Source of the DNA: Pyrobaculum sp.
GTDB lineage: Archaea > Thermoproteota > Thermoprotei > Thermoproteales > Thermoproteaceae
DNA length: 64,000 nt
NCBI GenBank assembly: GCA_038879095.1
Contig: JAVZUI010000003.1
Span: 9,640-73,639, forward strand
Direction of reading: 5' to 3'
Translations under genes and position numbers: made by a program
The notes under the pieces: generated by a model
What the model saw: the letters and a program-made list of their open reading frames with translations, nothing else
Databases searched by the model: none
What the model was told of the DNA's origin: nothing
Shown here: in pieces, positions 3,129 through 15,050 of the stretch
Layout: every line of letters begins with the position of its first letter
Numbering within the stretch: position 1 is the stretch's first letter

Positions 3129-3575
3129 GTGTTAGTCACCGTTGTAACGTCCATTGCCACGTTGGCGTATTGGATGGGTAGAAAATTTCAAAGACTAGAA
3201 AGTGAGGTGAAGACGGTTGGGGAGGAGCTTCGGGATAAAACGAACAGCCTTCTGCTCGGCTTTCAGAGCTATCAAGAGTTTTTTACAGAACTCCTCGCAA
3301 GCGATGACGTGTTGAGGGCGGAGAGGGTCCAGTCGGCGAAAAACGAGCCGTCAACGATGGCGAAGATGGCGATGGCTGACCCCCTTGCGAAAGAGGAGGT
3401 TGAGAGGTTGGAGGAGCTACTGCGGAAAGACGAGCTTACTCTAGAAGAGGCTCTAGAGCTAAGGGAAATAGCCAGGAAGGTGGTTAGAGAGTACGGCAAC
3501 TACGCGGAGGCTTGGAAGCTACACGCCTACGCCAGCCTCATGGTGGGGTTGGCCGGGTCAAAAAAGGCGGGTTAG
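3129..3575 (+). CDS. Hypothetical protein with N-terminal membrane anchor and coiled-coil region
   Basis: The 148-aa ORF has a hydrophobic N-terminus and charged heptad-like repeats. No recognised family. Confidence 0.35.
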   Translation: MLVTVVTSIATLAYWMGRKFQRLESEVKTVGEELRDKTNSLLLGFQSYQEFFTELLASDDVLRAERVQSAKNEPSTMAKMAMADPLAKEEVERLEELLRKDELTLEEALELREIARKVVREYGNYAEAWKLHAYASLMVGLAGSKKAG

Positions 3576-4069
3576 CAGACTTTGTTTAAGGCGGGGCCGT
3601 CCATGTCGTAGTAGTAGCCCTCCACCTCGGCGCCGAGGGGCTTAAGCCTTTCGCACGAGAGCTTGACGTTTTCTACGGCGGCTTTTTCCGCGTCTCCGCC
3701 TGCCCTCTTCACCGCCTCGGAGAGCTGGGCGGCAAGCGACGGCGGGGCCCTGCCCTGGGCCGCAAGCGCCACCGCGCCGCACCTCTTGTGGCCTATGACG
3801 TATATCCTGCGGACGCCCAGTTGCTCCACTGCGAACTTCAGCGAGTCGTATACCACGTCGGTCACCACGTTGCCAGCCACCCTCACGACGAACATGTCGC
3901 CGATGTTAGACAGAGTGAGTAGCTCCGGCGACAGCCGCGAGTCGGCGCAGGTCAAGACGGCGCATTTGGGAGACTGAGCCGCCGCGGTCCTCCTAATCGC
4001 CTCAAGCACCTCGCGCCCAGAGAGGCCGCCGGAGCCGGAGGCAACCCGGCTGAACCCCTCCAGGCACAT
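3572..4069 (-). CDS. Beta-class carbonic anhydrase
   Basis: Zinc-ligand motifs 'CADSR' and 'GHKRCGAV' (CxDxR ... HxxC) at the spacing typical of beta-CA. Confidence 0.8.
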   Translation of the reverse strand: MCLEGFSRVASGSGGLSGREVLEAIRRTAAAQSPKCAVLTCADSRLSPELLTLSNIGDMFVVRVAGNVVTDVVYDSLKFAVEQLGVRRIYVIGHKRCGAVALAAQGRAPPSLAAQLSEAVKRAGGDAEKAAVENVKLSCERLKPLGAEVEGYYYDMDGPALNKVC

Positions 4070-4091
4070 GACCCGGAGAAAGACCGGCCTT

Positions 4092-4101
4092 AAATTAATT
4101 G
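4092..4101. promoter_or_regulatory. AAATTAATTg (9/10 of the palindrome AAATTAATTT) between the carbonic anhydrase and GlcG genes
   Basis: Read directly from the sequence. It lies upstream of the TATA-like box of the GlcG-like gene. Confidence 0.35.
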
Positions 4102-4137
4102 TTGGAAATTTATTTAAAGCCCGCCGCGGAGGGTGGC

Positions 4138-4536
4138 GTGGACGTCGACGCCGTTTTCCAGGCGGTTAAGAGGGGCGTGGAGAAGGCCAAGTCGATGGGG
4201 ATAAAGGTGTCAATCGCCGTGGTGGACGCCTCGGGCCAAGTGGTGGCTGTGTACAGAATGGAGGGGGCCTATCCCTTCTCCCCCGACGTGGCGGTGAGGA
4301 AGGCGGTCACGGCGGCCTACTTCAAGAGGCCCACGGGCGAGCTGGCCGAGAGGGCTGCGCAGAACCTCCCCCTGTACCTCGGCTTAACAATACACGAAGG
4401 TCTAATATTCGGCAAGGGTGGACTGCCCGTGGTGAAAGACGGCGCGTTGAAGGCGGCCGTAGGAGTAAGCGGAGGGACCGGGGAACAGGACGAAGAAGTG
4501 GCAAAGACGGTGGCCGAGCACCTAGCCCACCTATAA
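4138..4536 (+). CDS. GlcG/DUF336 (HbpS-like, heme-degrading-type) protein
   Basis: 'IAVVDASGQVVAVYRMEGA', 'AVRKAVTAAYF' and 'GGLPVVKDGALKAAVGVSGGTGEQDEEVA' are typical of DUF336. The GTG at 4138 sits about 20 nt after a TATA-like 'AATTTATTTAAAG'. Confidence 0.75.
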   Translation: MDVDAVFQAVKRGVEKAKSMGIKVSIAVVDASGQVVAVYRMEGAYPFSPDVAVRKAVTAAYFKRPTGELAERAAQNLPLYLGLTIHEGLIFGKGGLPVVKDGALKAAVGVSGGTGEQDEEVAKTVAEHLAHL

Positions 4537-4564
4537 ACATGTAAGCCAGCAAAGACGGCAAGAC

Positions 4565-5053
4565 GTGCTCTCCAAGCCCTTGATCGACCTGGCGCGTTAT
4601 AGAGAGGTTAGGCTTAGGGAGGCGCTCTACGAGGCGGAGCTGGCGGAGCGGTTTTTAGAAGAGGGCTTGGTCCGCAACGCCGCCGGGAAGGCGTTCCAGG
4701 CCTGGAAGGCCCTCGTCGCCGCATACGCCGTAGACAAAATTGAGGATCTGAGGAAGGCGTACCCCGGCACGAAGAGGCTGAGAGGCGGAAGGCGCGCGGT
4801 GGAGAAGGCGGTGTGGGTGGTGGCAATCATGCCAACGACTCAGCTGAAAAAAGTGGCTCAAATAGTCGGCGGAGAGGTGGACGCATACACCGACAAGGCG
4901 CTTCGCATAAACGAGTACAGGTACAACGGCCCTGACCCCCAGGGCGTGTCGAGCATATACCCAGACGACTAGTCCGCGGCCAGAGACGTCAAAGCCCTAG
5001 CCCAGAAGGTCCGGGAGCTAGCCGCCGTGGCGTCCGGCGGATGGCGCCCCTAA
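4565..5053 (+). pseudogene. PaREP1/PaREP8-family (HEPN-like) protein with an in-frame TAG at 4970-4972
   Basis: 'REALYEAELAERFLEEGLVRNAAGKAFQAWKALVAAYA' is paralogous to the ORF at 13370. The 26 codons after the TAG stay in frame and align with the paralog's C-terminus. The gene may simply be a shorter intact ORF (4565-4972). Confidence 0.6.
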
Positions 5054-5446
5054 GCCAACGCACAAGCGGCCACCTCATACAGCACAAAGACTGCTCGGTT
5101 CAACTTAGCCTCCCTAAGCGCCGGTCTCGCGGCCTCAAAGGGAGGTGGCTCTCAGCGGCGGCATCCTCGACGTCGAGGGCCCAGTGGCGTCGTGGCAAGA
5201 GGCGGCGCGGAGAGTGACTTGCAAATTTTGTAGAACCGGCTTTGATGCCGGCGGCCTAAGGGGGCTTTCCCAATCTCTAGCTGAATTTACCGCCTCGCCG
5301 CATGTCCCCGCCGCGAGGCGGTGTCCCACTTTAACTGATCTGACCCGGTCTTAAGCAAAACGCGTTTGGCCTCGTGTAGAAGGCCTCTTTGTCGGAGGGC
5401 CCGTGTGAGGAACGCGGCGTAGAGAAGGGGGCTGAACGCGCTTTGT

Positions 5447-5456
5447 AAATTAATTA
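5447..5456. promoter_or_regulatory. AAATTAATTa (9/10) upstream of the ferredoxin/monooxygenase promoter
   Basis: About 15 nt upstream of the TATA-like AAAATATATAT. Confidence 0.35.
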
Positions 5457-5502
5457 AATTGTATTTTGGCAAAATATATATGACGGGGCTGAAATTAAAT
5501 TC

Positions 5503-5718
5503 ATGCGGCGGATCGAGGTTACGATAATACCTCAGAGGTGTAAGGGGTGTCCATACTGCGAGGAAGCTTTCCCGGAGTTGTTCAAAGTCAACAAGGTCGT
5601 CACGCTCGCCAGCGGAGAACACAGGGCATATCTGCCGATAGAGTACTTGCCTAAGGTCCAGAGGGCGTTCTTTAGCTGTCCAAACGGCGGGATTTCGTAT
5701 CGGATAGTCCTTGCATAG
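5503..5718 (+). CDS. Small single-cluster ferredoxin (CxxCxxC...CP type)
   Basis: 71 aa with 'RCKGCPYCEEAFPELF' and a distal 'SCPNGGI'. TATA-like 'AAAATATATAT' lies about 25 nt upstream. It directly precedes the monooxygenase genes. Confidence 0.55.
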   Translation: MRRIEVTIIPQRCKGCPYCEEAFPELFKVNKVVTLASGEHRAYLPIEYLPKVQRAFFSCPNGGISYRIVLA

Positions 5719-5870
5719 CGACGCGCCGTATCTAATACTCGGCTCAATTAATTTTTCTCTTCTGAAATAGATGATGTTCAATTTTAAATATTTAAGAAGT
5801 TGTTAAATTTAATCCGAATGAGAACTTTTTACTTTTGGACAAGTTTAAATACAAATTTAGACTGTTAGAC

Positions 5871-6660
5871 ATGCCTAATTTAGAGCCTAAAGAGCCTAGG
5901 TTGCCCACGAGGGACGAGTTCTATGACTTGGCTAACAAGTTCGAGTGGACGCCTAAGTACGTAAGTGAGGAGGAGCTGTTTCCCGTGGACATGCATGGTC
6001 TGCCCTACTTGCCCATAGACGTGTGGGCCGAGACCTACGACGCGCCGTATAAGGTGTTGTATAGGGAGTACGTCAAGAACCAGAGGTCGAAGGACCAGAT
6101 GGTGTTCGCGGTGAGGGACGCCGCTGCCAGGGCGGAGCTGGACAGGAAGCTAGACCCTGTGTACCACGGGGGAGCTTTTTGTTTTCACATAACCGCAATC
6201 CCCATACCAGAGTACACAGCTGTGGTTGGAGAGGGGCGCATGGCTAGGTTTGGCAAGTCCGGCGAGTGGCGCAACTTGGCCACATTCGGCATGATGGACG
6301 AGACAAGGCACGCCCAGTTGCAGATACTGCTGGCCCACGACAAGATTGGCATTAACCCCAAGTTCGCCTTTGGCCACAAGCTCTTCTGGGTAGACGGGTG
6401 GGTTTCGGTTTTCGCCCGTAAGTTCTTCGACGATATTATAACTGCGGCTGACGCCGTGGAAAACGCCTTGATGTTAACCTTCGGCTTCGGGGTTCACAAA
6501 CTTGCAATTCATCGCCTACGCCGCCATGGCCAACAAGGCCGGCGATTTCATGTTCGCAAGCACCACCGCAAGCATACAGACAGACGAGTCTCGCCACGCG
6601 CAGATAGGCCACCCTGTTCTGAAGACGTACGCAGATATTGCGAAGCTAAGTTCTAGGTGA
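5871..6660 (+). pseudogene. Soluble diiron monooxygenase hydroxylase alpha subunit, N-terminal half (frameshifted)
   Basis: 'PEY' followed 30 residues later by 'DETRH', and in the +1 frame 'GFTNLQFIAYAAMANKAGDFMFASTTASIQTDESRHAQ'. The reading frame changes at the G-run 6489-6492. The gene ends at TGA 6658-6660. Confidence 0.75.
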
Positions 6661-6666
6661 TTTTTT

Positions 6667-6676
6667 AAATTAATTT
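6667..6676. promoter_or_regulatory. Perfect palindrome AAATTAATTT upstream of the alpha C-half gene
   Basis: Lies in the 74-nt AT-rich spacer between the alpha halves, upstream of the TATA-like ATATATTTAAATT. Confidence 0.4.
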
Positions 6677-6734
6677 TTTGTCTTTTGAACTAATTTTGTG
6701 ATATATTTAAATTGAACAAAGTTATAATATATTA

Positions 6735-7661
6735 ATGGAACGAAAAAGTTTGGGAGAAACCAGGGAGCAAGTACGTGAGGCGCTGGCGGAACAACATAAG
6801 CTGATATCCACACGGTTGCTCAAGACTGTGGAATTTGCCACCAAGATCCGCGAGAGGGGGAGGCAGTATAAAGAGGCGGCGGAGTACTACATAGCGAAGT
6901 CCTTCTGGCTTAACTGGAGGGCCATAGCGGCCTTGACTGGGCCGTCCATGGACTACCTAACGCCGCTGGATGGCAGGATTATGTCCTTTAAGGAGTTCAT
7001 GAGGGAGTGGGTGGGCGCGCAGTTTAAGAGGCAACTGGAGGACTACGGGATCGAGTTGCCGTGGTACTGGAAGTACTGGGAGGCTGAGACCGAGTGGTGG
7101 CACCACGCCTTCGAGCTTGGCATATACCTGTGGAGGAGGACTTTGAATATACACAACAGAGGCCCGACCCCCGACGAGAGGAAGTGGCTGAACGAGAAGT
7201 ACGAAAACTGGGAGGAGAACTTCGGCAGGTACTGGGACCTCTACGCCAAGAACTACATAGAGGGGAGGCCGCCTCTGCCCAAGACGGCGCCGTTGTTATG
7301 TAATATGTGCCAGGTGCCTCTGATCAGCCTAAAGCCCGGCCGCCACGTCTTGATATACCAAGTGGAGTACAAAGGCAGGGTGTACAACTTCTGCTCCCCG
7401 GTGTGTATGTGGATATTTCTCAACGAGCCGCAGAGGTACGCCGGCCATATGTCGTACGTTGACAGAATTGCGGCCATGAAGATCAAGCTCAGCCCTGAGG
7501 CGCTTAAAAGCATTGAGAGGCTGTGGGACGAGATCATTTGGAACATGGGCTTCACAGAGGCAGGCGAGGCGGGGCTTGACCCCACCAACGGCGCGTGGGC
7601 CCTGTTGTACAAGGAGAAGGACCCCGAGTACGATAAAAGAGTCGCCCGCTGGACGTCATGA
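6735..7661 (+). CDS. Soluble diiron monooxygenase hydroxylase alpha subunit, C-terminal half (separate gene)
   Basis: 'ALTGPSMDYLTPLDGRIMSFKEFMREWVGAQFKRQLEDYGIELPWYW' matches the post-helix-F region of MmoX/DmpN-type alpha subunits. A YHS-like 'CNMCQVP...YKGRVYNFCSPVCMWIF' is present. It has its own AT-rich promoter. Confidence 0.85.
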   Translation: MERKSLGETREQVREALAEQHKLISTRLLKTVEFATKIRERGRQYKEAAEYYIAKSFWLNWRAIAALTGPSMDYLTPLDGRIMSFKEFMREWVGAQFKRQLEDYGIELPWYWKYWEAETEWWHHAFELGIYLWRRTLNIHNRGPTPDERKWLNEKYENWEENFGRYWDLYAKNYIEGRPPLPKTAPLLCNMCQVPLISLKPGRHVLIYQVEYKGRVYNFCSPVCMWIFLNEPQRYAGHMSYVDRIAAMKIKLSPEALKSIERLWDEIIWNMGFTEAGEAGLDPTNGAWALLYKEKDPEYDKRVARWTS

Positions 7662-8074
7662 GCGCCGTGCCCACGATCTTCATGCACGAAGAGGACTTTG
7701 TGTGGCAGGTCTTCTTCGTGCCGGCGGAGTTCACAGTGAAGCAGGCCACGGACTTCCTAATGTCGCTGATTACAGGAGCCACCGTGTGGCCTAAGAACAA
7801 GGAGGTGCGGATGGTTAAGTACAAGACCGGCGAGGTGCTTGACCCCAACGCGAAGTTCGGCGACGTGGTTAAGCCGGGGGAGCCCGTCTTGCTGGTCTGG
7901 TGGCCCCCCAAGGAGGAGTGGTGGAAGTCGAAGGACGACCCCGTCTTCAGATTGGCCCGGGAGACTGAGGAGCTTATGAAAACCAAGGCGCCTAGGTCGC
8001 CCATGGTGATATTCAAAGAGGAGTTCGAAAGGCTGAGCATCATCAAAAGGCTGGAACGGGAGGGCAAGATATGA
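7658..8074 (+). CDS. TmoB-like small (gamma) monooxygenase subunit with C-terminal extension
   Basis: The N-terminal 85 aa ('MSAVPTIFMHEEDFVWQVFFV...RMVKYKTGEVL...PGEPVLLVW') follow the pattern I recall for T4moB. ATGA overlap with the upstream gene. Confidence 0.55.
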   Translation: MSAVPTIFMHEEDFVWQVFFVPAEFTVKQATDFLMSLITGATVWPKNKEVRMVKYKTGEVLDPNAKFGDVVKPGEPVLLVWWPPKEEWWKSKDDPVFRLARETEELMKTKAPRSPMVIFKEEFERLSIIKRLEREGKI

Positions 8075-8469
8075 TCACCGTCACCGTTGGCGACTATCCC
8101 GGCGACTACGTAGCCGTCTGCAACGTGGACGAGCTTGTGGACGGAGAGGCGCAGGTGTACAAGGTGGGGCAGTACGAGGTGTACGTGGTGTTTAAAGACG
8201 GCGAGATTAGGGCGTACTACGGCAGATGCCCACACGCCTTCGGCGAGCTGGCCCCCTCCGACTTCGACGGGGAGAAGATAGTGTGCAACGTCCACCAGTG
8301 GGAGTTCGAGCCCCTCACCGGCGTCTCCATAAACCCCAAGGGCTCCCGCCTCTTTGCCTTGAAACACGAGGTGAGAGACGGCGTACTCTACGTAAAGGTG
8401 CCGAAGATGCCCGCGTCGGAGTTTAAGGAGAAGTACTTCAAGATGTACGGGGGGGAGGGCCATGAGTGA
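8071..8469 (+). CDS. Rieske [2Fe-2S] ferredoxin (TmoC/TouC-like)
   Basis: 'CPHAFGEL' and 'CNVHQWEF' (CxH-x17-CxxH). 132 aa. ATGA overlap. Confidence 0.85.
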   Translation: MITVTVGDYPGDYVAVCNVDELVDGEAQVYKVGQYEVYVVFKDGEIRAYYGRCPHAFGELAPSDFDGEKIVCNVHQWEFEPLTGVSINPKGSRLFALKHEVRDGVLYVKVPKMPASEFKEKYFKMYGGEGHE

Positions 8470-8812
8470 GGCTGCGGTCCGGGAGTGGGCGCCTGAGCTG
8501 GAGCAGTACCTGATAACTGAAGACAAGCTGCCCAAGGACTTGGTGGGCCCCGTCTTCATGAAGAGGGAGCTGGCCATATACGCCACGTTGGCGATTGCCG
8601 AAGACAACCCGGACACCTTCGTGGGGGTGCTGGACAGAGGGCTTTACATAAGAGTGGTGGGCAACAAGAGGCTGACGTTGAGGCGGAGGACGCTTGAGGA
8701 CTTGGCAGGCAGGGCCGTGAGGTTCCCCGGAGAGGTGGAGGAGATGATGTCGGCGTTCGCCGGTAAAATTAGGGTTACTGGAGAAGAAATATTGTGGTAC
8801 CTAGAGCTATGA
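8462..8812 (+). CDS. MmoB/DmpM-family monooxygenase effector protein
   Basis: 'VGPVFMKRELA...AEDNPDTFVGVLDRGLYIRVVGNKRLTLRRRTLEDLAGR...MSAFAGKI' is typical of TmoD/MmoB effectors. Confidence 0.8.
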   Translation: MSEAAVREWAPELEQYLITEDKLPKDLVGPVFMKRELAIYATLAIAEDNPDTFVGVLDRGLYIRVVGNKRLTLRRRTLEDLAGRAVRFPGEVEEMMSAFAGKIRVTGEEILWYLEL

Positions 8813-9930
8813 GCTGGGACGAAGTCTACAAAAAGATATTTGCCAAGGCCTCTTTCAACGAGAAGTTCTTCCGCGACGTGGAGTACCAGGGCTACAAGAG
8901 GACTTGGGTCACGTGGCCCATGCTGGAGAAGAAGATCGGCCGGAAGAGGCCTAGCGAGTACCAAGCGGTGAGCTACGCGCTGTCTTACTGGTCTCCTGAC
9001 CCCAACTCGCCCACGTATAGATACCTGGGCACGCCCTTTGAGCTAGGCACAGACTACCACATACAGAAGTGGTATATCTACTTCAGAGACCGGTCTCCGC
9101 TAGTCTCGGCAGTGGTCCAGGGAGGCGGTTGGCACGACTACCACGACCCACACGAGCTGGTCTACTGGAAGTACAACACAATGATGGACGAGGAGGAAAC
9201 ATTCGTCGATAGGCTATTGGAACAGATCGTGGCCACGAAACACGACACAAAGCTCTCGGAGGAACTGTTGAAGTTCTACAGAGACTACTACGACCCGCTC
9301 CGCTTCGTCTGGCACGCAATGCAGATGCACTGCGCCTACCTCTCTCAAATGGCCCCCACCTCCACTGTGCTGAACATATTTACGTTTATGGCCATGGACT
9401 ACTTGAGGAGGGTGCAGAGGATTGCCCAGAGAGTCAAGATGTTAGACATAGTGTACCCAGAATTCGGCTTCGGCCGGGCGGGGAGGAGGCAGTTTGAAGA
9501 GGACCCACACCTCCAGCCCACTAGACAAGTGTTAGAACAAATGCTAGTGGCTTACGACTACACAGAGGCCCTGGCCTCCTTCGCGCTGGCGGTGAAGCCC
9601 GCCTTAGACGCAATCTATTTGTCGGGATTCGCCAAGCTGGCTGAGCTGAATGGAGACAGGTACTTAGGCCAGATACACCTATCCTTCTTGAAGGATAGCC
9701 AACGCCACAGAGATCAGTTAGTGGCGTTGTTTAAGTACGCGTTTGAGAAAGCGCCGTCGGCCAAGGACGTGGTTAGGGGAATTGCAGACAGGTGGAGGAG
9801 GGCGGTGAGAGACGCCGCGAGGGCGCTAGGCCCCGTCTTGGAGTCCATGCCGGCGAAACTGCCGCTGGACGCCGTGGTGGCGGAGGTAGAGGAGGAGTGG
9901 AGAAGGCTGGACTCCGACATAGGGCTATGA
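8809..9930 (+). CDS. Soluble diiron monooxygenase hydroxylase beta subunit
   Basis: About 373 aa and ferritin-like helical, with 'WHDYHDPHELVYWKYNTMMDEEETFVDRLL' typical of TmoE/DmpL beta subunits. The ATG at 8809 overlaps the effector stop (ATGA). Confidence 0.75.
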   Translation: MSWDEVYKKIFAKASFNEKFFRDVEYQGYKRTWVTWPMLEKKIGRKRPSEYQAVSYALSYWSPDPNSPTYRYLGTPFELGTDYHIQKWYIYFRDRSPLVSAVVQGGGWHDYHDPHELVYWKYNTMMDEEETFVDRLLEQIVATKHDTKLSEELLKFYRDYYDPLRFVWHAMQMHCAYLSQMAPTSTVLNIFTFMAMDYLRRVQRIAQRVKMLDIVYPEFGFGRAGRRQFEEDPHLQPTRQVLEQMLVAYDYTEALASFALAVKPALDAIYLSGFAKLAELNGDRYLGQIHLSFLKDSQRHRDQLVALFKYAFEKAPSAKDVVRGIADRWRRAVRDAARALGPVLESMPAKLPLDAVVAEVEEEWRRLDSDIGL

Positions 9931-10388
9931 GTAGCCGGGAGCTTGTGGTGGGGGCTCTAAGGCAGGTGTACGACCCCGAGCTCCCTGAAAATATTTACGA
10001 CCTCGGCCTCATAAGAGAGGTCTACCTAGACGAGGCCAATAGAAGAGTGAAGGTGACGATGTTGTTCACGTCTGGGAGGATGTGCCCCGTGGCCGACATG
10101 ATGGCGGTGCAGGTGAAATACGCCATTAAACGCGCCCTACCTGAGTACGACGTAGACGTCAAGGTGGACTTTGAGACTAGGTGGACGCCTAAGATGGCCA
10201 CCCCGGAGGGGAGGAGGGCCTTAGAGGAGATTTTTGGAAGGGAGTACGTCGAATCTCTGTCGAGGGGCAAGGTCGTCGTGAGGGTACAACAGCCGCCGCC
10301 GGACTTCGACCCCATAGCGTATATGAGAGAAAGAGTAGAGGCCAGGTATAAAGTCTTTAAGGAGTGGCTAGAGCGCAACAAGGTGTAA
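9927..10388 (+). CDS. DUF59 (MIP18/PaaD/SufT-like) Fe-S or metal-assembly protein
   Basis: 'VYDPELPENIYDLGLIREVYLDE...VKVTMLFTSGRMCPVADMM' is the canonical DUF59 core. ATGA overlap with the beta subunit stop. Confidence 0.75.
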   Translation: MSSRELVVGALRQVYDPELPENIYDLGLIREVYLDEANRRVKVTMLFTSGRMCPVADMMAVQVKYAIKRALPEYDVDVKVDFETRWTPKMATPEGRRALEEIFGREYVESLSRGKVVVRVQQPPPDFDPIAYMRERVEARYKVFKEWLERNKV

Positions 10389-12172
10389 TGTCTTTTGTCG
10401 CCTTTTTTAAACAGATTCCCGATTTGAATTTTATTAGGCTTGACCCAGCCACTAAGAGAATCGTCAGAGAGGGCGTGCCCAACGTCATGAATCCCTTTGA
10501 CTACCACGCCATAGAGGGGGCCCTCTACCTTAGAGACGCCTTGGGGGGAAGGGCCGTGGCGGTCACCATGGGGCCGCCCAGTTTTAAACAGTCTGCGGAA
10601 GAGGCTCTGGCCATGGGCGTGGACTTGGTGGTCCATCTATCAGACAAGGCCTTTGCCGGAAGCGACACCTTGGCCACCTCAAGGGCACTGGCCCGCGCCG
10701 TGAAGGCATTTGCCCCGGATTACAAGGCAATATTTGCGGGCAAGTACTCGTGGGACGGCGACACGGGGCACGTGGGCCCCCAGACCGCCGAGCTTTTGGG
10801 CATTCCGCACGTAAGCGGCGTCGTGGAGGTCAGGATAAAAGGCGAAAGGGCGTCGGTGAGGAGAGAGGCGGAGGACGGCGAAGAGGAGCTGGAGGTGGAA
10901 CTGCCAGCATTGTTCACAGTGACCGACAGGGCCTTTAACCCAAGGCCTCCGGGCAAGCCAAAGGGCCGCTACGTAGTGGCCACCGCCGCAGACATCGGCG
11001 TAGATCTTTCCGAAGTGGGGGCCGCCGGGTCGCCCACTGTGGTGGAGGACTTATACGAAGAGAGGTGGGAGAGGGCCGGCGGCGTGGCGGTAGACGCCCG
11101 AAACGACCCAGATATAGGCGCTGAGGCGCTGTGGCGCTGGCTTAAGACAGTGGTTTCTTCTGCGGATCGGGGAGGCGCCGTCAGAGAGGCGCCCGTTAGG
11201 GAGAGAGGTCCCCGAGTGGTGGCGGTGGTGGCCGATGACAAGTGGGACGGGGGGCTTAGGAGGGTGTCTCTAGAGCTTTTAGGGAAGGCGGTGGAGCTGG
11301 CCGAGGCGGTGGGGGGCACCGTCGTTGCGCTATACGGCGGCTTAGAGGACCCCAGGACCCTAATTGCACACGGCGCGGACGAGGTGGTGTGGATAAGAGA
11401 GGCAGACCCCTTTGACATATACGCCCACGGGGAGGCGCTGGCGGAGTTTATACTTAAACGCAAGCCCTGGGCCGTGCTGGCCCCCTCCACCACCTACGGG
11501 AGGGACCTCATGTCGAGAGTTGCGGCGAGGCTGGGCCTAGGGTTGACCGCAGACTGTGTGGACTTCTCGGTTAGGGGGGGCGAGCTGTTGCAACACAAGC
11601 CCGCGTTCGGCGGAGGCGTCGTGTCTATTATACGGTCCAAGACGTACCCCCAGATGGCCACCGCGAGGCCCGGCATGTTCGAACCGCTGGCCCCAAACCC
11701 TAAGAGGAGTGGAGAAGTTTTAGAAATCAAGGCGCGCCCGAGGATGAGGACCACCTCGAGGACCCCCCGAGCCTCCGAGTGGCCAGACCCCCAAGAGGCC
11801 GGGGTGGTGGTGGGCGTTGGGAGGGGGTTTAAGAAGCCCGAAAACTTAAAGCCGGCCTTAGACTTGGCCAAGGCGCTGGGCGCGGCGGTGGCAGCCACTA
11901 GAAACGTGGTGCTGGCCGGCTGGCTTCCGTACCGGCTACAGGTAGGGGTCTCCGGCAAGGCCATAGCCCCCTTGGCCTACCTCGCCCTGGCAATTAGAGG
12001 CGACGTGAACCACGTGGTGGGGATCAGGAGGGCGAGGCACATAGCCGCCGTGAACATCAACCCCAGGGCCGAGATATTTAAAATCGCAGAGCTCGGCGTA
12101 GTGGGGGACGTCAATAAGATCGTCCCCCTCCTCTTAGAACGAGCGGTTAAGGAGCCGCTCTTTAAAAATTAA
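10388..12172 (+). CDS. Fused electron transfer flavoprotein, beta-alpha (FixA-FixB type) in one polypeptide
   Basis: The N-terminal half is ETF-beta-like ('NPFDYHAIEGAL...GSDTLATSRALARAV...DGDTGHVGPQTAELLGIPHV'). The C-terminal half is ETF-alpha-like ('TTYGRDLMSRVAARLGLGLTADC', 'QVGVSGKAIAPLAYLALAIRGDVNHVVGI'). TAATG overlap with the DUF59 stop. Confidence 0.85.
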   Translation: MSFVAFFKQIPDLNFIRLDPATKRIVREGVPNVMNPFDYHAIEGALYLRDALGGRAVAVTMGPPSFKQSAEEALAMGVDLVVHLSDKAFAGSDTLATSRALARAVKAFAPDYKAIFAGKYSWDGDTGHVGPQTAELLGIPHVSGVVEVRIKGERASVRREAEDGEEELEVELPALFTVTDRAFNPRPPGKPKGRYVVATAADIGVDLSEVGAAGSPTVVEDLYEERWERAGGVAVDARNDPDIGAEALWRWLKTVVSSADRGGAVREAPVRERGPRVVAVVADDKWDGGLRRVSLELLGKAVELAEAVGGTVVALYGGLEDPRTLIAHGADEVVWIREADPFDIYAHGEALAEFILKRKPWAVLAPSTTYGRDLMSRVAARLGLGLTADCVDFSVRGGELLQHKPAFGGGVVSIIRSKTYPQMATARPGMFEPLAPNPKRSGEVLEIKARPRMRTTSRTPRASEWPDPQEAGVVVGVGRGFKKPENLKPALDLAKALGAAVAATRNVVLAGWLPYRLQVGVSGKAIAPLAYLALAIRGDVNHVVGIRRARHIAAVNINPRAEIFKIAELGVVGDVNKIVPLLLERAVKEPLFKN

Positions 12173-12175
12173 TTT
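12166..12175. promoter_or_regulatory. Perfect palindrome AAATTAATTT upstream of the alcohol dehydrogenase gene
   Basis: Overlaps the ETF stop codon, 78-88 nt before ATG 12254. Confidence 0.4.
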
Positions 12176-12253
12176 TTTAACATTATATATCAATTATACT
12201 TTTTTAAATTATTTTTTAGAAAAAATTAAATTTTATAATATTCATTTTTAGAC

Positions 12254-13342
12254 ATGCGCGCGGCATTATTAACCCAGTTCCAAAAGCCTCTTGAGATAAA
12301 GGAGGTGGACGTGCCGAGGCCCAAGAGAGGCGAGGTTCTGATACAAGTACAGGCCTGTGGCATATGTAGGTCAGATTGGCACCTCTGGAGAGGCGACCCC
12401 TCGCTGGTGGCGTACATGGAGTGGTCCGGCGGGAGGCTGCCCATAATTCCAGGCCACGAGGTGGCTGGAAAGGTGGTGGAAGTAGGCGAAGGGGTCGAGA
12501 ACGTCCAGGTGGGCGACGTGGTGGTGGCCCCCGCCTCGTCCACAGGCGACAACAGGTCCTGCAGGTTCTGCAGGGAGGGCAACAGCAATATATGTGAACA
12601 TCTGTGGATACCCGGCTTCGGCACCCACGGCTGCTACGGCGAATATATGTTGGTCCCCGCCGGGTCCGTCGTAGACCTCGTGAAAGTCCCGCCGGGGGTA
12701 AGGCCTGAACACGCGGCAATTACTGGCTACGGGTTTGGGACGGCTTGGAACGCCCTGGTTGTTAAGGGAAGTATTAAGCCCGGCGAGACCCTTCTGGTTA
12801 CCGGCGTGGGGGGAATGGGCCTCAGCGCGGTGGCCATCGCAGTGGCCTCAGGCGCCAAGGTGGTAGCCGTAGACGTCAACCCAGCCTCTGTGGACAAGGC
12901 CAGGAAACTGGGCGCAGTGGCGGCCTACCACTACTCCGGCGACCCGAAGGAGCTTGCCAAGCTGATCAACGAGGAGATAGTGAAGACCTACGGCATGGTG
13001 GACGCGGTATTCGACTCCACCGGCAACCCCGACGTACTCTCAGCCGTGCTCCCCGCAGTGAGACCCCAAGGCAGGGTACTACTGGCGGGGCTCATGATGA
13101 AAGGCAAGGAGATATGGCCACTCGCCTCCGACATAGTGGTGGCAAGGGAGTTGACCATACAGGGTGTGTTGATGCTGGCATCGCAGAAGTACGACAACAT
13201 CTTCAAGTTGATGACGGAGGGCAGGGTCAACCTAGAACCCGTCATATACAGAAGGATCTCGCTGGACGAGGTCAACGACGCCTACGACGAGATGACCAAA
13301 TATAAAAACGCCGGCCGTTTCGTAATTACTAAATTCCGCTAA
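12254..13342 (+). CDS. Zn-dependent alcohol dehydrogenase (MDR family)
   Basis: 'GICRSDWH', 'GHEVAGKVVEVGEGV', a structural-Zn cysteine cluster 'CRFCREGNSNIC', and a Rossmann motif 'VTGVGGMG'. Confidence 0.85.
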   Translation: MRAALLTQFQKPLEIKEVDVPRPKRGEVLIQVQACGICRSDWHLWRGDPSLVAYMEWSGGRLPIIPGHEVAGKVVEVGEGVENVQVGDVVVAPASSTGDNRSCRFCREGNSNICEHLWIPGFGTHGCYGEYMLVPAGSVVDLVKVPPGVRPEHAAITGYGFGTAWNALVVKGSIKPGETLLVTGVGGMGLSAVAIAVASGAKVVAVDVNPASVDKARKLGAVAAYHYSGDPKELAKLINEEIVKTYGMVDAVFDSTGNPDVLSAVLPAVRPQGRVLLAGLMMKGKEIWPLASDIVVARELTIQGVLMLASQKYDNIFKLMTEGRVNLEPVIYRRISLDEVNDAYDEMTKYKNAGRFVITKFR

Positions 13343-13369
13343 ATCAATTTTTTAGATTGTCATTTTTTA

Positions 13370-13867
13370 ATGTGCGTGGAACTAACAAAGCCTTGGATCG
13401 ACTTGGGGAAATACAAGAGGGATAGGCTAAGGGAGGCCCTCTACGAGGCGGAGCTGGCTGAGGAGTTTCTAAAAAACGGACTGTTGAGGAACGCCGCTGG
13501 GAAGGCCTTCCAAGCGGTCAAGGCTCTTCTAGCCGCAGTCGCCGTCGATCATAGAGATAAGATCGTGGCGTCTTTCAAGGGGAAGAGGAGGCTTGGGGAG
13601 GGCAAGGTGGTGGAGCGGGGGGACTGGATCATCGCCGTGATGCCCACTTCGAAAATGCGAGAGGTGGCGGCGCTTGTGGGAGACAGAGACCTGCGCCTAG
13701 CCGTCGAGCTTGCTCTAAACCTACACGAGTTTCAGTACAACGGCCTCGACAAAGACGCCGAGGTCTCCCGCTACTCTTCAGAAGAGCTTGTTAGAAAAGA
13801 CGTACTAGACGTGGTTAACTACGTCAAACGCGTCGCAAGCCAGCTTCCTGAAGCAACGTCAAGTTAG
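13370..13867 (+). CDS. PaREP1/PaREP8-family (HEPN-like) protein
   Basis: 'DRLREALYEAELAEEFLKNGLLRNAAGKAFQAVKALLAAVAV' is a paralog of the ORF at 4565. Confidence 0.75.
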   Translation: MCVELTKPWIDLGKYKRDRLREALYEAELAEEFLKNGLLRNAAGKAFQAVKALLAAVAVDHRDKIVASFKGKRRLGEGKVVERGDWIIAVMPTSKMREVAALVGDRDLRLAVELALNLHEFQYNGLDKDAEVSRYSSEELVRKDVLDVVNYVKRVASQLPEATSS

Positions 13868-13930
13868 GCAGATCACCTATATCATTCAAGCCGTCAAACA
13901 AGTATAAAGTCCTACACATTGCTGGCGCGG

Positions 13931-14028
13931 GGCTCCGCCGAGGGTAAACAGAGACTTGCTTACTTGTGGAGACGAGTAACGAAATACGCGCCTCGGGGGC
14001 TTGTTCCGATCAGAGGCTCGGCGGAGCC
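13931..14028. repeat. Perfect 12-bp inverted repeat GGCTCCGCCGAG / CTCGGCGGAGCC enclosing 74 nt
   Basis: Arms at 13931-13942 and 14017-14028, in the intergenic region between the PaREP1 and FAH genes. Confidence 0.6.
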
Positions 14029-14075
14029 TTAACTGAGCGACGGGACTAAGGCTGTTTTGCCGCCGCCGCGTTGCG

Positions 14076-14085
14076 AAATTAATTT
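14076..14085. promoter_or_regulatory. Perfect palindrome AAATTAATTT upstream of the FAH-family gene
   Basis: 56-66 nt before ATG 14142, upstream of the TATA-like CTTTTTAAAAGG. Confidence 0.4.
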
Positions 14086-14141
14086 TATTTGTCATGATAT
14101 AATTTGAAAAACTTTTTAAAAGGGGATGGTGGTAAGGGGTT

Positions 14142-15050
14142 ATGCGGCTGTTGACGTTTAGAAGGGGCGAAGTGCTGAAGGTGGGCCTCTGGAAGGATGG
14201 AAAGGTCCTAGACCTCCCAGAGGCGTATAAACAAGTGTTCGGCGCGTACGAGGCGCCGGACTTCCTCTACAGCATGAAGAAGCTTATTGCTGTTGGGGAG
14301 CCGGCCTTGGAGGTGGTGAGGAAGCTGGAGGCGAAGGCCAAGGGGCCGTTTTACCAGCCCTCCGAGATCGTGTGGGAGCCTCCTGTGCCGGACCCCGAGA
14401 AGATATTTGCCGTCGCCGTCAACTACAGAGCCCACGGCCAGGAGGCCGGCGTCAAGCCTCCTGAGAAGCCCTACTTCTTCCCCAAGTTCCCCAACGCCCT
14501 CGTCGGCCACGAGGGGCGCGTGGTTAAGCACAAGGTGGCACAAAAGGTGGACTGGGAGGTAGAGCTGGTGGTGGTGCTGGGCAGAGCTGGGAAGTACATC
14601 TCGCCGGAGGAGGCCCTCGACTACGTCTTCGGCTACGCCGTGGGCAACGACATCTCGATCAGAGACTGGCAGTTCCCGCCTGGGTGGCCGCAACAGCTGA
14701 ACCCATACGGCCAGAACTGGATATGGGGCAAGTCCATGGACACCGCCGCGCCGGTGGGGCCGTGGGTCGTGACGAGGGACGAGGTGCCTGACCCCAACCG
14801 CCTGGCGCTGAGGCTTTGGGTGAACGGCAACTTGGAGCAGGAGGGCAACACGTCGGAGCTCATCTTCAACGTCCAGCAGTTGATACACTGGGCCTCGCAG
14901 GGCATTACGCTGAAGCCCGGCGACCTAATATTCACAGGTACGCCGCCGGGGGTGGGCTTCCCCAAGGGCAAGTTCCTCAAGGGCGGGGACGTAGTCGAGG
15001 CGGAGGTGGAGAGGGTGGGCCGCCTTAGGAACTACGTAGTCGAGGAATGA
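14142..15050 (+). CDS. Fumarylacetoacetate hydrolase (FAH)-family hydrolase/hydratase/decarboxylase
   Basis: 'KIFAVAVNYRAH', 'YFFPKFPNALVGH', 'DWEVELVVVLG', 'GYAVGNDISIRDWQ' and 'PGDLIFTGTPPGVG' are the FAH C-terminal domain motifs. Confidence 0.85.
   Translation: MRLLTFRRGEVLKVGLWKDGKVLDLPEAYKQVFGAYEAPDFLYSMKKLIAVGEPALEVVRKLEAKAKGPFYQPSEIVWEPPVPDPEKIFAVAVNYRAHGQEAGVKPPEKPYFFPKFPNALVGHEGRVVKHKVAQKVDWEVELVVVLGRAGKYISPEEALDYVFGYAVGNDISIRDWQFPPGWPQQLNPYGQNWIWGKSMDTAAPVGPWVVTRDEVPDPNRLALRLWVNGNLEQEGNTSELIFNVQQLIHWASQGITLKPGDLIFTGTPPGVGFPKGKFLKGGDVVEAEVERVGRLRNYVVEE

What the first reader, a model, noticed from the sequence alone, without database searches (positions are those of the whole stretch)
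5503..12172. Archaeal multicomponent soluble diiron monooxygenase operon in tmoABCDE order, without a flavin reductase gene
- Seen: a ferredoxin (5503) is followed by the alpha subunit in two pieces (5871-6660 and 6735-7661). Then come a TmoB-like subunit, a Rieske ferredoxin (CPH-x17-CxxH), an MmoB/DmpM-like effector and the beta subunit. From 6735 onward every junction is an ATGA or short overlap.
- The alpha subunit has 'PEY'-x30-'DETRH' and 'GFTNLQF...SIQTDESRH'. This spacing is identical to MmoX ligands E114/E144/H147 and E209/E243/H246 as I recall that sequence.
- Established: this is the gene order of four-component alkene/aromatic monooxygenases, which normally end with an NADH:ferredoxin oxidoreductase (TmoF/TouF). 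None is present here.
- Such enzymes are rare in archaea. From memory, a related cluster with a split alpha subunit has been noted in Saccharolobus solfataricus, so the cluster type itself may not be new. Its presence in a Pyrobaculum-like genome and its electron-input solution still deserve attention.
Basis: partly seen in the sequence, partly recalled or inferred. Interest (0 to 1): 0.8.

Follow-up and report, generated by a model that had tools for sequence, protein, structure and literature searches.

The report
Pyrobaculum toluene-monooxygenase-like operon with fused ETF
This is the already known archaeal version of a bacterial toluene/phenol monooxygenase gene cluster; here the usual reductase gene is absent and a fused electron-transfer flavoprotein sits at the operon's end, and this particular copy has a 5-base deletion that breaks the catalytic subunit.

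Summary
The gene set is real. Region 5503-12172 encodes a small 4Fe-4S ferredoxin, a split alpha subunit, a TmoB-like gamma subunit, a Rieske ferredoxin, an effector and a beta subunit. Every component matches the toluene-4-monooxygenase/ToMO family (SDIMO group 2) best.

- The alpha N-terminal gene is broken here. A 5-nt deletion at 6490 removes the Glu197-equivalent iron ligand (FETGFTN becomes FGFTN) and shifts the frame before the second EXXH. Sister assemblies that are 99.95% identical are intact.
- The operon does not stop at beta. A DUF59/PaaD-like gene and a 594-aa fused EtfB-EtfA flavoprotein follow, joined by ATGA and TAATG overlaps. So "without a flavin reductase gene" does not hold. 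Only the FNR-type TmoF is missing.
- The cluster type is already published for S. solfataricus (Sso1225-1234, induced on phenol) and was noted in P. arsenaticum in 2012.

What looks new is the ETF. Its orthologues form a 100%-bootstrap clade. Every orthologue with readable upstream context sits just after DUF59 in a Pyrobaculum SDIMO cluster. Both Sulfolobales loci examined carry a TodA-type reductase instead, and most bacterial relatives have an FNR-type ORF after beta by a motif scan.

I infer that the ETF is the NADH-to-Rieske electron input (about 0.55). Interest is moderate.

The parts
5503..5718 (+). 71-aa single-cluster [4Fe-4S]-type ferredoxin (CxxCxxC...CP). It has its own AT-rich promoter-like upstream region. 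It is an accessory gene, not a conserved member of the cluster.
   Evidence: Pfam Fer4_15 24.7 bits, above the cut-off of 22.4. Cys at 13, 16, 19 and 59. A 54%-identical 74-aa orthologue sits directly upstream of alpha-N in L055. No orthologue was found in L002, L057, L064-L071 or the Sulfolobales loci.
5871..6660 (+). Alpha subunit, N-terminal gene (intact length 264 aa), carrying all six diiron ligands. In this window it is disrupted by a 5-nt deletion at 6490: frame 0 runs to about 6489, and frame +1 covers 6491-6660.
   Evidence: It aligns with TmoA residues 5-250. The 5-nt deletion relative to L001 is shown. The intact 264-aa form is reported in three NCBI Pyrobaculum MAG proteins, while the frameshifted 261-aa product occurs on one contig only.
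6661..6734 (+). AT-rich 74-nt spacer between alpha-N and alpha-C, with a TATA-like TTTAAAT about 27 nt before the alpha-C ATG. I infer it is a separate promoter.
   Evidence: Read directly from the sequence; the 40 nt upstream of the ATG are 88% A+T. In P. arsenaticum and other Pyrobaculum loci a whole Zn-ADH gene occupies this position.
6735..7661 (+). Alpha subunit, C-terminal gene (308 aa). It has an N-terminal extension of about 45 aa and a YHS-type CxxC...CxxxC motif.
   Evidence: Pfam YHS 4.9e-13. Collinear with TmoA 251-489. The 4-Cys motif lies at residues 189-224.
7658..8074 (+). Gamma subunit (TmoB/TouB-like beta-grasp fold) with a C-terminal helical extension of about 55 aa.
   Evidence: Pfam TmoB 21 bits, below the cut-off of 25. 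No PDB sequence hit. An AF2 model (pLDDT 59) gives TouB and TmoB as top Foldseek hits, E 5e-5, target-normalised TM-score 0.72-0.80.
8071..8469 (+). Rieske [2Fe-2S] ferredoxin (TmoC-like), motif CPH-x16-CxxH.
   Evidence: Pfam Rieske 7.8e-14. Best PDB match is T4moC at 1.1e-10. Motif read.
8462..8812 (+). Effector/coupling protein (TmoD/MmoB family).
   Evidence: Pfam MmoB_DmpM 1.1e-17. T4moD 1e-8.
8809..9930 (+). Beta subunit of the hydroxylase (TmoE/TouE-like).
   Evidence: Pfam Phenol_Hydrox 2.5e-53. TouE 8e-49 and TmoE 1e-45.
9927..10388 (+). DUF59/FeS_assembly_P protein (PaaD/SufT-like). It is probably a maturation factor. It is conserved in every complete archaeal cluster examined and absent from the bacterial relatives.
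   Evidence: Pfam PF01883 1e-13. NCBIfam hits to SUF_assoc and PaaD are below their cut-offs. Present in L002-L004, L006, L055, L057 and L064-L067/L071, and in none of the 48 bacterial loci. The S. solfataricus orthologue Sso1234 is induced 45-fold on phenol (PMC7820114).
10388..12172 (+). Fused EtfB-EtfA flavoprotein (594 aa), the last gene of the alpha-C-to-ETF operon. It is the proposed NADH-to-Rieske-ferredoxin electron input.
   Evidence: Pfam ETF 1e-77 plus ETF_alpha 1e-24. PDB matches to bifurcating ETFs score 146-180 bits (LctB 126), against 61-101 bits for canonical ETFs. ET-FAD residues are conserved, but the Bf-site Arg is Lys. It overlaps DUF59 by TAATG. All orthologues of at least 51% identity with readable upstream context lie after DUF59 in SDIMO clusters. 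The clade has 100/100 bootstrap support.
12254..13342 (+). Zn-dependent alcohol dehydrogenase with its own promoter-like AT-rich upstream region. It is conserved next to every archaeal cluster examined.
   Evidence: Pfam ADH_N and ADH_zinc_N. It is 82-86% identical to the ADH that lies between alpha-N and alpha-C in other Pyrobaculum loci. The S. solfataricus homologue Sso1220 is induced 346-fold on phenol (PMC7820114).

Best explanation
The region is the Pyrobaculum form of the crenarchaeal, split-alpha, TMO-family (SDIMO group 2) aromatic/phenol monooxygenase.

**Components**
- The hydroxylase is built from alpha-N (a four-helix bundle holding all six iron ligands), alpha-C, beta and a TmoB-like gamma subunit.
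- A TmoD-like effector and a TmoC-like Rieske ferredoxin complete the catalytic system.
- A DUF59/PaaD-like protein probably helps with metal-centre maturation.

**Transcription (inferred)**
- Each of the ferredoxin, alpha-N, alpha-C-to-ETF and ADH units has an AT-rich stretch with a TATA-like element about 27 nt upstream of its ATG.

**Electron input (inferred, not shown)**
- The bacterial FNR-type reductase TmoF is absent.
- So is the TodA-type ferredoxin reductase that the Sulfolobales clusters use.
- In their place stands the fused EtfB-EtfA flavoprotein encoded as the last gene of the operon.
- I propose that NADH reduces the EtfB-side FAD and that electrons pass one at a time through the mobile ET-FAD to the Rieske ferredoxin and then to the diiron centre.

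**State of this copy**
- A 5-nt deletion removes the E197-equivalent ligand and puts the second EXXH out of frame.
- As sequenced, this copy cannot make active hydroxylase. Either this strain variant is a very recent pseudogene or the MAG has an assembly error.
For: **Family assignment**
- The concatenated alpha aligns collinearly with TmoA at E 4e-122. ToMO scores 1e-119, phenol hydroxylase 1e-36 and MMOH 1e-12.
- Beta, Rieske and effector each match T4MO/ToMO chains best. The gamma model matches TouB/TmoB by fold.

**The split is ancestral**
- Stand-alone alpha-N genes of 263-268 aa occur in P. arsenaticum, Acidianus, Saccharolobus and Metallosphaera.
- An ADH gene lies between the two halves in P. 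arsenaticum.
- The halves are in separate places in A. manzaensis.

**Function of the family**
- Sso1225-1234 is induced 10- to 384-fold on phenol (PMC7820114).

**ETF as electron input**
- It overlaps DUF59 by TAATG, at the end of a chain of ATGA and short overlaps.
- The same DUF59-then-ETF adjacency is seen in L002, L003, L055 and L057 and in all 5 metagenome loci with at least 51% identity. None of 75 more distant fused-ETF loci has it.
- The SDIMO-linked ETFs form a clade with 100/100 bootstrap support.
- Reductase types are complementary. TodA-type sits next to alpha-N in both Sulfolobales loci. An FNR-type ORF follows beta in most bacterial relatives. Neither type, nor FixC, FixX or an acyl-CoA dehydrogenase, was found near the Pyrobaculum clusters.
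- The ETF resembles NADH-dependent bifurcating ETFs more than canonical ones.
- The ET-FAD residues Arg, Ser, Tyr and His are conserved.
- A fused ETF from a related family binds two FAD and is reduced by NADH (PMC12042025).

**The deletion**
Against: - There is no biochemical evidence for ETF-to-Rieske electron transfer, and I know of no precedent.
- The Arg next to the bifurcating FAD (R146 in A. fermentans EtfA) is Lys in this protein and in its whole family. NADH and Bf-FAD chemistry may therefore differ.
- The closest non-Pyrobaculum relatives often sit next to acyl-CoA dehydrogenase genes (21 of 75 loci). That is the classical ETF partnership.
- I could not search a full Pyrobaculum genome for a stand-alone ferredoxin reductase.
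- An acyl-CoA dehydrogenase gene exists 51 kb away, at the end of the window.
- Substrate assignment rests on the S. solfataricus orthologue. This window lacks the LigAB extradiol dioxygenase found beside the cluster in other Pyrobaculum loci.
Confidence: 0.55

Rival explanations
1. The ETF is not the monooxygenase reductase. Electrons reach the Rieske ferredoxin from a reductase or ferredoxin system encoded elsewhere, for example a generic Pyr_redox_2 enzyme, or 2-oxoacid:ferredoxin oxidoreductase working with a 4Fe-4S ferredoxin such as the one at 5503. On this view the ETF serves a catabolic dehydrogenase of the downstream pathway, as ETFs classically do.
For: - Relatives of this fused-ETF family commonly follow an acyl-CoA dehydrogenase gene (21 of 75 loci).
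- Published neighbourhoods of monomeric ETFs are acyl-CoA dehydrogenases, FixCX or ETF-QO (PMC12042025).
- A 4Fe-4S ferredoxin sits upstream of alpha-N in two lineages.
- No ETF-to-Rieske precedent was found in the literature searches.
Against: - No acyl-CoA dehydrogenase, FixC, FixX or ETF-QO-like gene lies within about 10 kb of any Pyrobaculum cluster.
- The ETF is overlap-coupled to the SDIMO genes, and the SDIMO-linked ETFs form their own clade.
- The reductase present in the Sulfolobales clusters is missing exactly where the ETF is present.
- The ferredoxin is absent from most Pyrobaculum clusters.
Confidence: 0.25
2. The cluster in this genome is a decaying, non-functional remnant. The 5-nt deletion is real, and the locus is on its way to loss, as has already happened in P. 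oguniense.
For: - The deletion removes an iron ligand and shifts the frame.
- It does not lie in a simple homopolymer. The window and L001 also differ by 3 SNPs, which are real strain differences.
- This window has no LigAB, glyoxalase-type dioxygenase, MarR or protoglobin neighbours, unlike other Pyrobaculum loci.
- In P. oguniense TE7 a deletion runs from mid alpha-N to mid ETF.
- The ETF is fragmented in L057, L067 and L071.
Against: - All other genes of the cluster are intact.
- The intact alpha-N allele is found in three NCBI MAG proteins and on ENA contigs of the same species, whereas the broken form occurs on one contig only.
- The source is a MAG, so an assembly or consensus error cannot be excluded.
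Confidence: 0.5
3. The ETF works as a true electron-bifurcating module. NADH oxidation would send one electron downhill to the Rieske ferredoxin and the O2-reducing diiron centre, and the other uphill to the low-potential 4Fe-4S ferredoxin.
For: - The sequence is closest to bifurcating ETFs.
- A low-potential-type ferredoxin gene and a Rieske gene both lie in the cluster in the window and in L055.
Against: - The ferredoxin is missing from most clusters.
- The Bf-site Arg is replaced by Lys.
- There are no data on redox potentials.
Confidence: 0.1

Closest known systems
Saccharolobus solfataricus monooxygenase cluster Sso1225-Sso1234 (Notomista et al. 2003; Izzo et al. 2005; PMC7820114)
   Same: - Alpha subunit split at the same point (TmoA residue ~250) into genes of ~265 and ~310 aa.
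- The same downstream order of gamma, Rieske, effector, beta and DUF59.
- 45-73% amino-acid identity per component.
- Zn-ADH and HbpS-like genes nearby.
   Different: - S. solfataricus and A. manzaensis have a TodA-type (Pyr_redox_2 plus Reductase_C) ferredoxin reductase directly upstream of alpha-N and no ETF in the cluster.
- The window has no such reductase. It carries a fused ETF after DUF59 and a small 4Fe-4S ferredoxin upstream.
- The window has no catechol 2,3-dioxygenase.
Pyrobaculum arsenaticum cluster (CP000660.1, locus L002; noted in PMC3512248)
   Same: - The same components, including DUF59 and the fused ETF with a 1-nt stop/start overlap.
- 61-91% amino-acid identity per component.
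   Different: - In P. arsenaticum the Zn-ADH lies between alpha-N and alpha-C, LigAB follows the ETF, and there is no upstream ferredoxin.
- In the window the ADH follows the ETF, LigAB is absent, and alpha-N carries the 5-nt deletion.
Bacterial four-component toluene monooxygenases T4MO (TmoABCDEF) and ToMO (TouABCDEF), SDIMO group 2
   Same: - The A-B-C-D-E gene order.
- All six diiron ligands in the intact allele.
- The best PDB matches for alpha, beta, Rieske, effector and gamma.
   Different: - The bacterial alpha subunit is a single ~500-aa chain.
- The bacterial operon usually ends with an FNR-type reductase, found by motif scan after beta in 30 of the 48 bacterial loci; several of the remaining contigs end before that position.
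- Bacterial relatives have no DUF59 and no ETF.
- The archaeal gamma subunit has an extra C-terminal helical region, and alpha-C has an N-terminal extension.
Monomeric (fused) bifurcating ETF of Sulfolobus acidocaldarius, SaETF (PMC12042025)
   Same: - A single polypeptide with EtfB followed by EtfA.
- Closer to bifurcating than to canonical ETFs.
- ET-FAD site residues conserved.
   Different: - Only 35% identical to the SaETF-like, FixCX-linked protein of A. manzaensis.
- It belongs to a different fused-ETF family that has KPAFGG rather than RPxFGG at the Bf site.
- Its neighbours are SDIMO genes, not FixCX or acyl-CoA dehydrogenases.
Phenylacetyl-CoA epoxidase PaaABCDE
   Same: A diiron multicomponent oxygenase whose operon includes a DUF59 protein (PaaD) of unclear, probably maturation-related, role. 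The window's DUF59 protein hits PaaD models weakly.
   Different: - It is a different oxygenase family.
- PaaE is an FNR-type reductase.
- The PaaD hits are far below the NCBIfam cut-offs.

Membership tests
SDIMO group 2 (four-component toluene/benzene monooxygenase, Tmo/Tou type) | Alpha subunit with two E...EXXH diiron motifs (TmoA E104, E134/H137, E197, E231/H234) | tested here: inconclusive
   The intact allele (L001, P0147) has all six ligands: PEY, DETRH, FETGFTN and TDESRH. In the window copy the E197 equivalent is deleted and E231/H234 are out of frame.
SDIMO group 2 (four-component toluene/benzene monooxygenase, Tmo/Tou type) | Alpha subunit homologous to TmoA/TouA over its full length, and closer to them than to other SDIMO groups | tested here: met
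   E 4e-122 to TmoA and 1e-119 to TouA, against 1e-36 for phenol hydroxylase and 1e-12 for MMOH. The alignment is collinear over TmoA residues 5-489, but the protein is split into two genes.
SDIMO group 2 (four-component toluene/benzene monooxygenase, Tmo/Tou type) | Beta subunit, gamma (TmoB) subunit, Rieske ferredoxin and cofactor-less effector, in A-B-C-D-E order | tested here: met
   Beta 8e-49, Rieske 1e-10 and effector 1e-8 against T4MO/ToMO chains. Gamma is weak by sequence (21 bits, below the cut-off of 25) but matches TouB/TmoB by fold with target-normalised TM-scores of 0.72-0.80, on a low-confidence model.
SDIMO group 2 (four-component toluene/benzene monooxygenase, Tmo/Tou type) | FNR-type NADH:ferredoxin oxidoreductase (TmoF/TouF) as the sixth gene | tested here: not met
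   A motif scan for FNR-type ORFs of at least 280 aa found none in the 64-kb window or in Pyrobaculum loci L001-L003, L055 and L057. The same scan found one after beta in most bacterial relatives.
SDIMO group 2 (four-component toluene/benzene monooxygenase, Tmo/Tou type) | NADH- and O2-dependent hydroxylation of aromatics | not testable with these tools
   The only evidence is by analogy: the S. solfataricus orthologous cluster is induced on phenol (PMC7820114).
Crenarchaeal split-alpha TMO-like cluster (Sso1225-1234 type) | Alpha subunit split after helix F into separate N- and C-terminal genes | tested here: met
   Alpha-N is a stand-alone gene of 263-268 aa in Pyrobaculum, Acidianus, Saccharolobus and Metallosphaera. 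The two halves are separated by a spacer, by an ADH gene or by several kb.
Crenarchaeal split-alpha TMO-like cluster (Sso1225-1234 type) | DUF59 gene directly after beta | tested here: met
   Window 9927-10388. Also present in L002-L004, L006, L055 and L057.
Crenarchaeal split-alpha TMO-like cluster (Sso1225-1234 type) | TodA-type ferredoxin-NAD+ reductase (Sso1225) next to alpha-N | tested here: not met
   tblastn with the S. solfataricus and A. manzaensis reductases gave no hit in the window. The only Pyrobaculum hit is a 27%-identical generic Pyr_redox_2 gene 9 kb away in L002.
Bifurcating (group 2) electron-transfer flavoproteins | EtfB and EtfA modules, with higher similarity to bifurcating than to canonical ETFs, including EtfA domain I | tested here: met
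   146-180 bits to 7KOE, 5OL2, 4KPU, 6FAH and 7QH2_A (LctB, 7QH2_B, 126), against 61-101 bits to 1EFV, 1EFP and 1O94. Alignments to the bifurcating EtfA chains extend into domain I, and so do those to the canonical M. methylotrophus EtfA.
Bifurcating (group 2) electron-transfer flavoproteins | Conserved Arg contacting N5 of the bifurcating FAD (R146 of A. fermentans EtfA; R419 of SaETF) | tested here: not met
   The window has Lys (QHKPAFGGG), as does its whole fused-ETF family. The five solved bifurcating ETFs and the FixCX-linked A. manzaensis protein all have Arg.
Bifurcating (group 2) electron-transfer flavoproteins | ET-FAD site residues (Arg/Lys, Ser/Thr, Tyr, His) | tested here: met
   ATR, VSGK, PLAY and NH align with the corresponding A. 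fermentans residues (residue roles taken from PMC12042025).
Bifurcating (group 2) electron-transfer flavoproteins | Adjacent high-potential partner (acyl-CoA dehydrogenase, FixCX or ETF-QO) | tested here: not met
   None was found in the window apart from an acyl-CoA dehydrogenase 51 kb away. None was found in any Pyrobaculum SDIMO locus.
Bifurcating (group 2) electron-transfer flavoproteins | Two FAD per protein, reduction by NADH, and coupled reduction of ferredoxin | not testable with these tools
   This needs purified protein.

The most novel reading that the evidence does not exclude
In Pyrobaculum, a dedicated clade of fused EtfB-EtfA flavoproteins has been recruited as the reductase of a soluble diiron monooxygenase. 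It would be the first ETF-driven SDIMO. It may also work as a bifurcating module that uses the strongly exergonic Rieske/diiron/O2 branch to reduce a low-potential 4Fe-4S ferredoxin with NADH.
Probability: 0.1. Interest if true: 0.85.

Novelty: new variant of a known kind. Interest (0 to 1): 0.5.

Why it matters
- SDIMO electron input has been treated as fixed: an FNR-type reductase, with or without a Rieske ferredoxin.
- The archaeal clade shows that this module can be swapped. Sulfolobales use a TodA-type reductase, and Pyrobaculum apparently uses an ETF.
- An ETF feeding an oxygenase would give monomeric ETFs a new kind of physiological partner. The recent biochemical study of a monomeric ETF states that its low-potential partner is still unknown and that less common gene neighbourhoods may point to new functions (PMC12042025).
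- It would also offer a thermostable, all-soluble electron chain for hyperthermophilic hydroxylation biocatalysis.
- On the practical side, this copy's catalytic gene is broken by a 5-nt deletion. Experiments should use the intact allele (L001/P0147) or the P. arsenaticum genes.

Tried and rejected
- **Programmed frameshift in alpha-N:** rejected. The frame change is a 5-nt deletion relative to otherwise identical sister contigs.
- **Window-specific split of alpha:** rejected. The split is shared by every crenarchaeal orthologue examined.
- **Split alpha in more distant hits (P0020, P0023; loci L058, L059):** these look like fragmented genes on non-archaeal contigs and were not informative.
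- **Genome-contig scan with alpha-C:** it returned 48 loci, none archaeal by record title. They were useful only as an outgroup, with unsplit alpha and an FNR-type reductase in most.
- **Other reductases and ETF partners in the window:** tblastn for TodA-type reductase, FixC, FixX, catechol 2,3-dioxygenase, LigAB, glyoxalase, MarR, protoglobin and aldehyde dehydrogenase found none.
- **NCBIfam:** no model reaches its cut-off for any SDIMO subunit.
- **PDB sequence search for the TmoB-like protein:** no hit, so I used a fold search instead.
- **Literature searches for an ETF-SDIMO link:** nothing found.
- **Notomista et al. 2003:** not held in the library.
- **The sigma-70 promoter and terminator scanner:** not used, because it does not apply to archaea.

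Full report
**What is in the sequence**

Six-frame translation and Pfam scans give the following genes on the + strand.

| Coordinates | Product | Main evidence |
|---|---|---|
| 5503-5718 | 71-aa ferredoxin | Fer4_15 24.7 bits (cut-off 22.4); Cys 13/16/19/59 |
| 5871-6660 | alpha N-terminal gene | Phenol_Hydrox 5e-59, only after repairing a frame change |
| 6735-7661 | alpha C-terminal gene | YHS 5e-13 |
| 7658-8074 | TmoB-like protein | 21 bits, below the cut-off of 25 |
| 8071-8469 | Rieske ferredoxin | 8e-14; CPH-x16-CxxH |
| 8462-8812 | MmoB/DmpM effector | 1e-17 |
| 8809-9930 | beta subunit | Phenol_Hydrox 2.5e-53 |
| 9927-10388 | DUF59/FeS_assembly_P protein | 1e-13 |
| 10388-12172 | fused EtfB-EtfA flavoprotein | ETF 1e-77, ETF_alpha 1e-24 |
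| 12254-13342 | Zn-dependent alcohol dehydrogenase | ADH_N, ADH_zinc_N |

- The junctions from 7658 to 10388 are ATGA overlaps, one 8-nt overlap, and TAATG at DUF59/ETF.
- The seven genes from alpha-C to the ETF therefore form one tightly packed unit.
- AT-rich stretches (70-90% A+T) with a TATA-like element about 27 nt before the ATG precede the ferredoxin, alpha-N, alpha-C and ADH genes.
- I read these as four separate archaeal promoters. This is an inference.

- An ENA metagenome scaffold (L001) matches window 1-16384 at 99.95%. The only differences are three SNPs and one 5-nt gap.
- At the gap, L001 reads GGCTTCGAGACGGGGTTC (G-F-E-T-G-F). The window reads GGCTTC-----GGGGTTC.
- The alignment to TmoA puts that Glu at E197, one of the six iron ligands, inside the conserved FETGFTN.
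- The deletion removes this ligand and shifts E231/H234 (TDESRH) out of frame.
- The intact 264-aa protein is reported in three NCBI Pyrobaculum MAG proteins and on ENA contigs. The frameshifted 261-aa product occurs on a single 89-kb NCBI contig, which is the window's source.
- This copy is therefore either a very recent strain-level pseudogene or a MAG assembly error. I cannot tell which without the reads.

**Which family it belongs to**

- Alpha-N (repaired) joined to alpha-C aligns collinearly with T4MO TmoA. Alpha-N covers TmoA residues 5-250 and alpha-C covers 251-489.
- Scores are E 4e-122 for TmoA, 1e-119 for ToMO TouA, 1e-36 for phenol hydroxylase and 1e-12 for MMOH.
- Beta matches TouE/TmoE best (8e-49), the Rieske protein matches T4moC (1e-10) and the effector matches T4moD (1e-8).
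- The 138-aa protein has no PDB sequence hit.
- A single-sequence AF2 model of it (pLDDT 59, so low confidence) has a beta-grasp core. Its top Foldseek matches are TouB and TmoB, with E 5e-5 and target-normalised TM-scores of 0.72-0.80. It also has about 55 extra C-terminal helical residues.
- The system is a group-2 (TMO-type) SDIMO.

**The split alpha is ancestral and already known**

- Alpha-N homologues are stand-alone genes of 263-268 aa in P. arsenaticum (90% identity), Acidianus, S. solfataricus and Metallosphaera.
- In P. arsenaticum a whole Zn-ADH gene separates alpha-N from alpha-C.
- In A. manzaensis alpha-N lies 3 kb downstream of the alpha-C-to-DUF59 operon.
- The 48 closest loci from the genome scan, none archaeal by record title, are 40-50% identical and have an unsplit alpha.
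- The S. solfataricus genes are annotated as tmoA amino-end and carboxy-end fragments (Sso1227/1228). The whole Sso1225-1234 cluster is induced 10- to 384-fold on phenol (PMC7820114).
- Multicomponent monooxygenase relatives in P. arsenaticum were reported in 2012 (PMC3512248).
- The cluster type and its presence in Pyrobaculum are therefore not new.

**Electron input**

A motif scan finds FNR-type ORFs after beta in most bacterial relatives, but none in the window or in Pyrobaculum loci L001-L003, L055 and L057.
- The Sulfolobales clusters instead have a TodA-type (Pyr_redox_2 plus Reductase_C) reductase immediately upstream of alpha-N. It is annotated todA, Sso1225.
- Pyrobaculum clusters lack that as well. 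All of them carry the fused ETF directly after DUF59:
  - the window and L001;
  - L002 and L003 (P. arsenaticum);
  - L055 and L057;
  - all five metagenome loci whose ETF is at least 51% identical (L064-L067, L071).
- None of 75 more distant fused-ETF loci has SDIMO genes. Twenty-one of them have an acyl-CoA dehydrogenase-like gene nearby, mostly just upstream, and one has FixCX.
- In a neighbour-joining tree of 126 fused ETFs, the SDIMO-linked proteins form a clade with 100/100 bootstrap support.
- No acyl-CoA dehydrogenase, FixC or FixX lies near any Pyrobaculum cluster.
- The ETF scores much higher against solved bifurcating, NADH-dependent ETFs (146-180 bits; LctB 126) than against canonical ones (61-101 bits).
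- Its ET-FAD residues are conserved.
- A fused ETF from S. acidocaldarius binds two FAD and is reduced by NADH. The neighbourhood survey in that paper reports no oxygenase context (PMC12042025).
- Two cautions apply:
  - The Arg next to the bifurcating FAD is Lys in this whole family.
  - The protein is only 35% identical to the SaETF-like protein of A. manzaensis.
- My best explanation (confidence about 0.55) is that the ETF is the NADH-to-Rieske-ferredoxin reductase of this monooxygenase. It would be a third, independent solution to electron input in this enzyme family.
- The step from ETF to Rieske ferredoxin is inferred from gene context only.

**Other members and context**

- The 71-aa ferredoxin has a 54%-identical orthologue at the same position in L055. 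It is absent from the other Pyrobaculum and Sulfolobales clusters, so it is an accessory gene.
- DUF59 is present in every complete archaeal cluster examined and in none of the 48 bacterial loci. It hits PaaD and SUF-associated models weakly.
- The Zn-ADH is the most constant neighbour, at 82-86% identity among Pyrobaculum loci.
- Unlike the other Pyrobaculum loci, the window has no LigAB, glyoxalase-type dioxygenase, MarR or protoglobin.
- P. oguniense TE7 has a deletion that joins a 147-aa alpha-N remnant to a 203-aa ETF remnant. This shows that the module can be lost.

**Verdict**

- The system is a known kind of cluster in a known host genus.
- Its genuinely unreported feature is the ETF in the reductase position.
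- This window's copy is broken. Interest is moderate (0.5).

Noticed in passing
window 4565-4972 and 13370-13867: Two PaREP1-family genes in direct orientation (74% nucleotide identity over 161 nt) flank the ferredoxin-SDIMO-ETF-ADH block. They may have mediated the rearrangement that moved the ADH and lost LigAB, relative to other Pyrobaculum loci.
   Followed up: partly
window 16034-19629: This stretch holds an unknown 283-aa ORF, a small Rieske protein (16882-17202), a 565-aa protein with a C-terminal PEP-utilising mobile domain, and an inositol-monophosphatase-family gene. The pairing of a Rieske protein with a PEP-utilising protein recurs beside SDIMO clusters in L057 and in P. oguniense L060, where a PPDK_N protein follows. 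That resembles phenylphosphate synthase, so it may be an anaerobic phenol route. Its function was not established.
   Followed up: partly
window 7299-7406 (alpha-C residues 189-224): The YHS region of alpha-C carries a complete CxxC...CxxxC motif. It is conserved in Pyrobaculum and in the Chloroflexota and Streptomyces relatives, three of the four Cys remain in Sulfolobales, and it is degenerate in Burkholderiales and T4MO. This suggests a structural metal site that T4MO has lost.
   Followed up: partly
L060 10001-11045 (Pyrobaculum oguniense TE7, CP003316.1): A 147-aa alpha-N remnant abuts a 203-aa C-terminal ETF remnant and is followed by LigAB. A single deletion appears to have removed the whole monooxygenase from mid alpha-N to mid ETF.
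   Followed up: partly
L064 2332-3111 and 4346-5125: A hot-spring metagenome contig carries two tandem alpha-N copies, each followed by ADH sequence (the first only partial), upstream of an otherwise standard Pyrobaculum cluster.
   Followed up: no
window 10388-12172; loci L061-L143: The window's ETF belongs to a very large family of ~615-aa fused ETFs (more than 4000 hits at E<=1e-30) found in Acidobacteriota, Proteobacteria, Halobacteria and Bathyarchaeia. All members examined have KPAFGG, with Lys in place of the bifurcating-site Arg. Many follow an acyl-CoA dehydrogenase gene, and one archaeal example follows an Oxidored_molyb gene and an MFS transporter gene. As far as I found, this family has not been characterised biochemically.
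   Followed up: partly
window 63100-64000: An acyl-CoA dehydrogenase gene (Acyl-CoA_dh_N and Acyl-CoA_dh_M domains) runs off the end of the window, 51 kb from the ETF. It is the only classical ETF partner in the window.
   Followed up: no
window 3572-4536: A beta-class carbonic anhydrase (minus strand) and an HbpS/GlcG-like gene (4099-4536) lie upstream. HbpS-like genes also accompany the S. solfataricus, A. manzaensis and L057 clusters, which suggests a conserved accessory role.
   Followed up: no
window 20015-24375: A five-gene branched-chain-amino-acid-type ABC transporter (Peripla_BP_6, two BPD_transp_2 and two ABC_tran genes) lies downstream of the catabolic genes. It could take up an aromatic or organic acid.
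   Followed up: no
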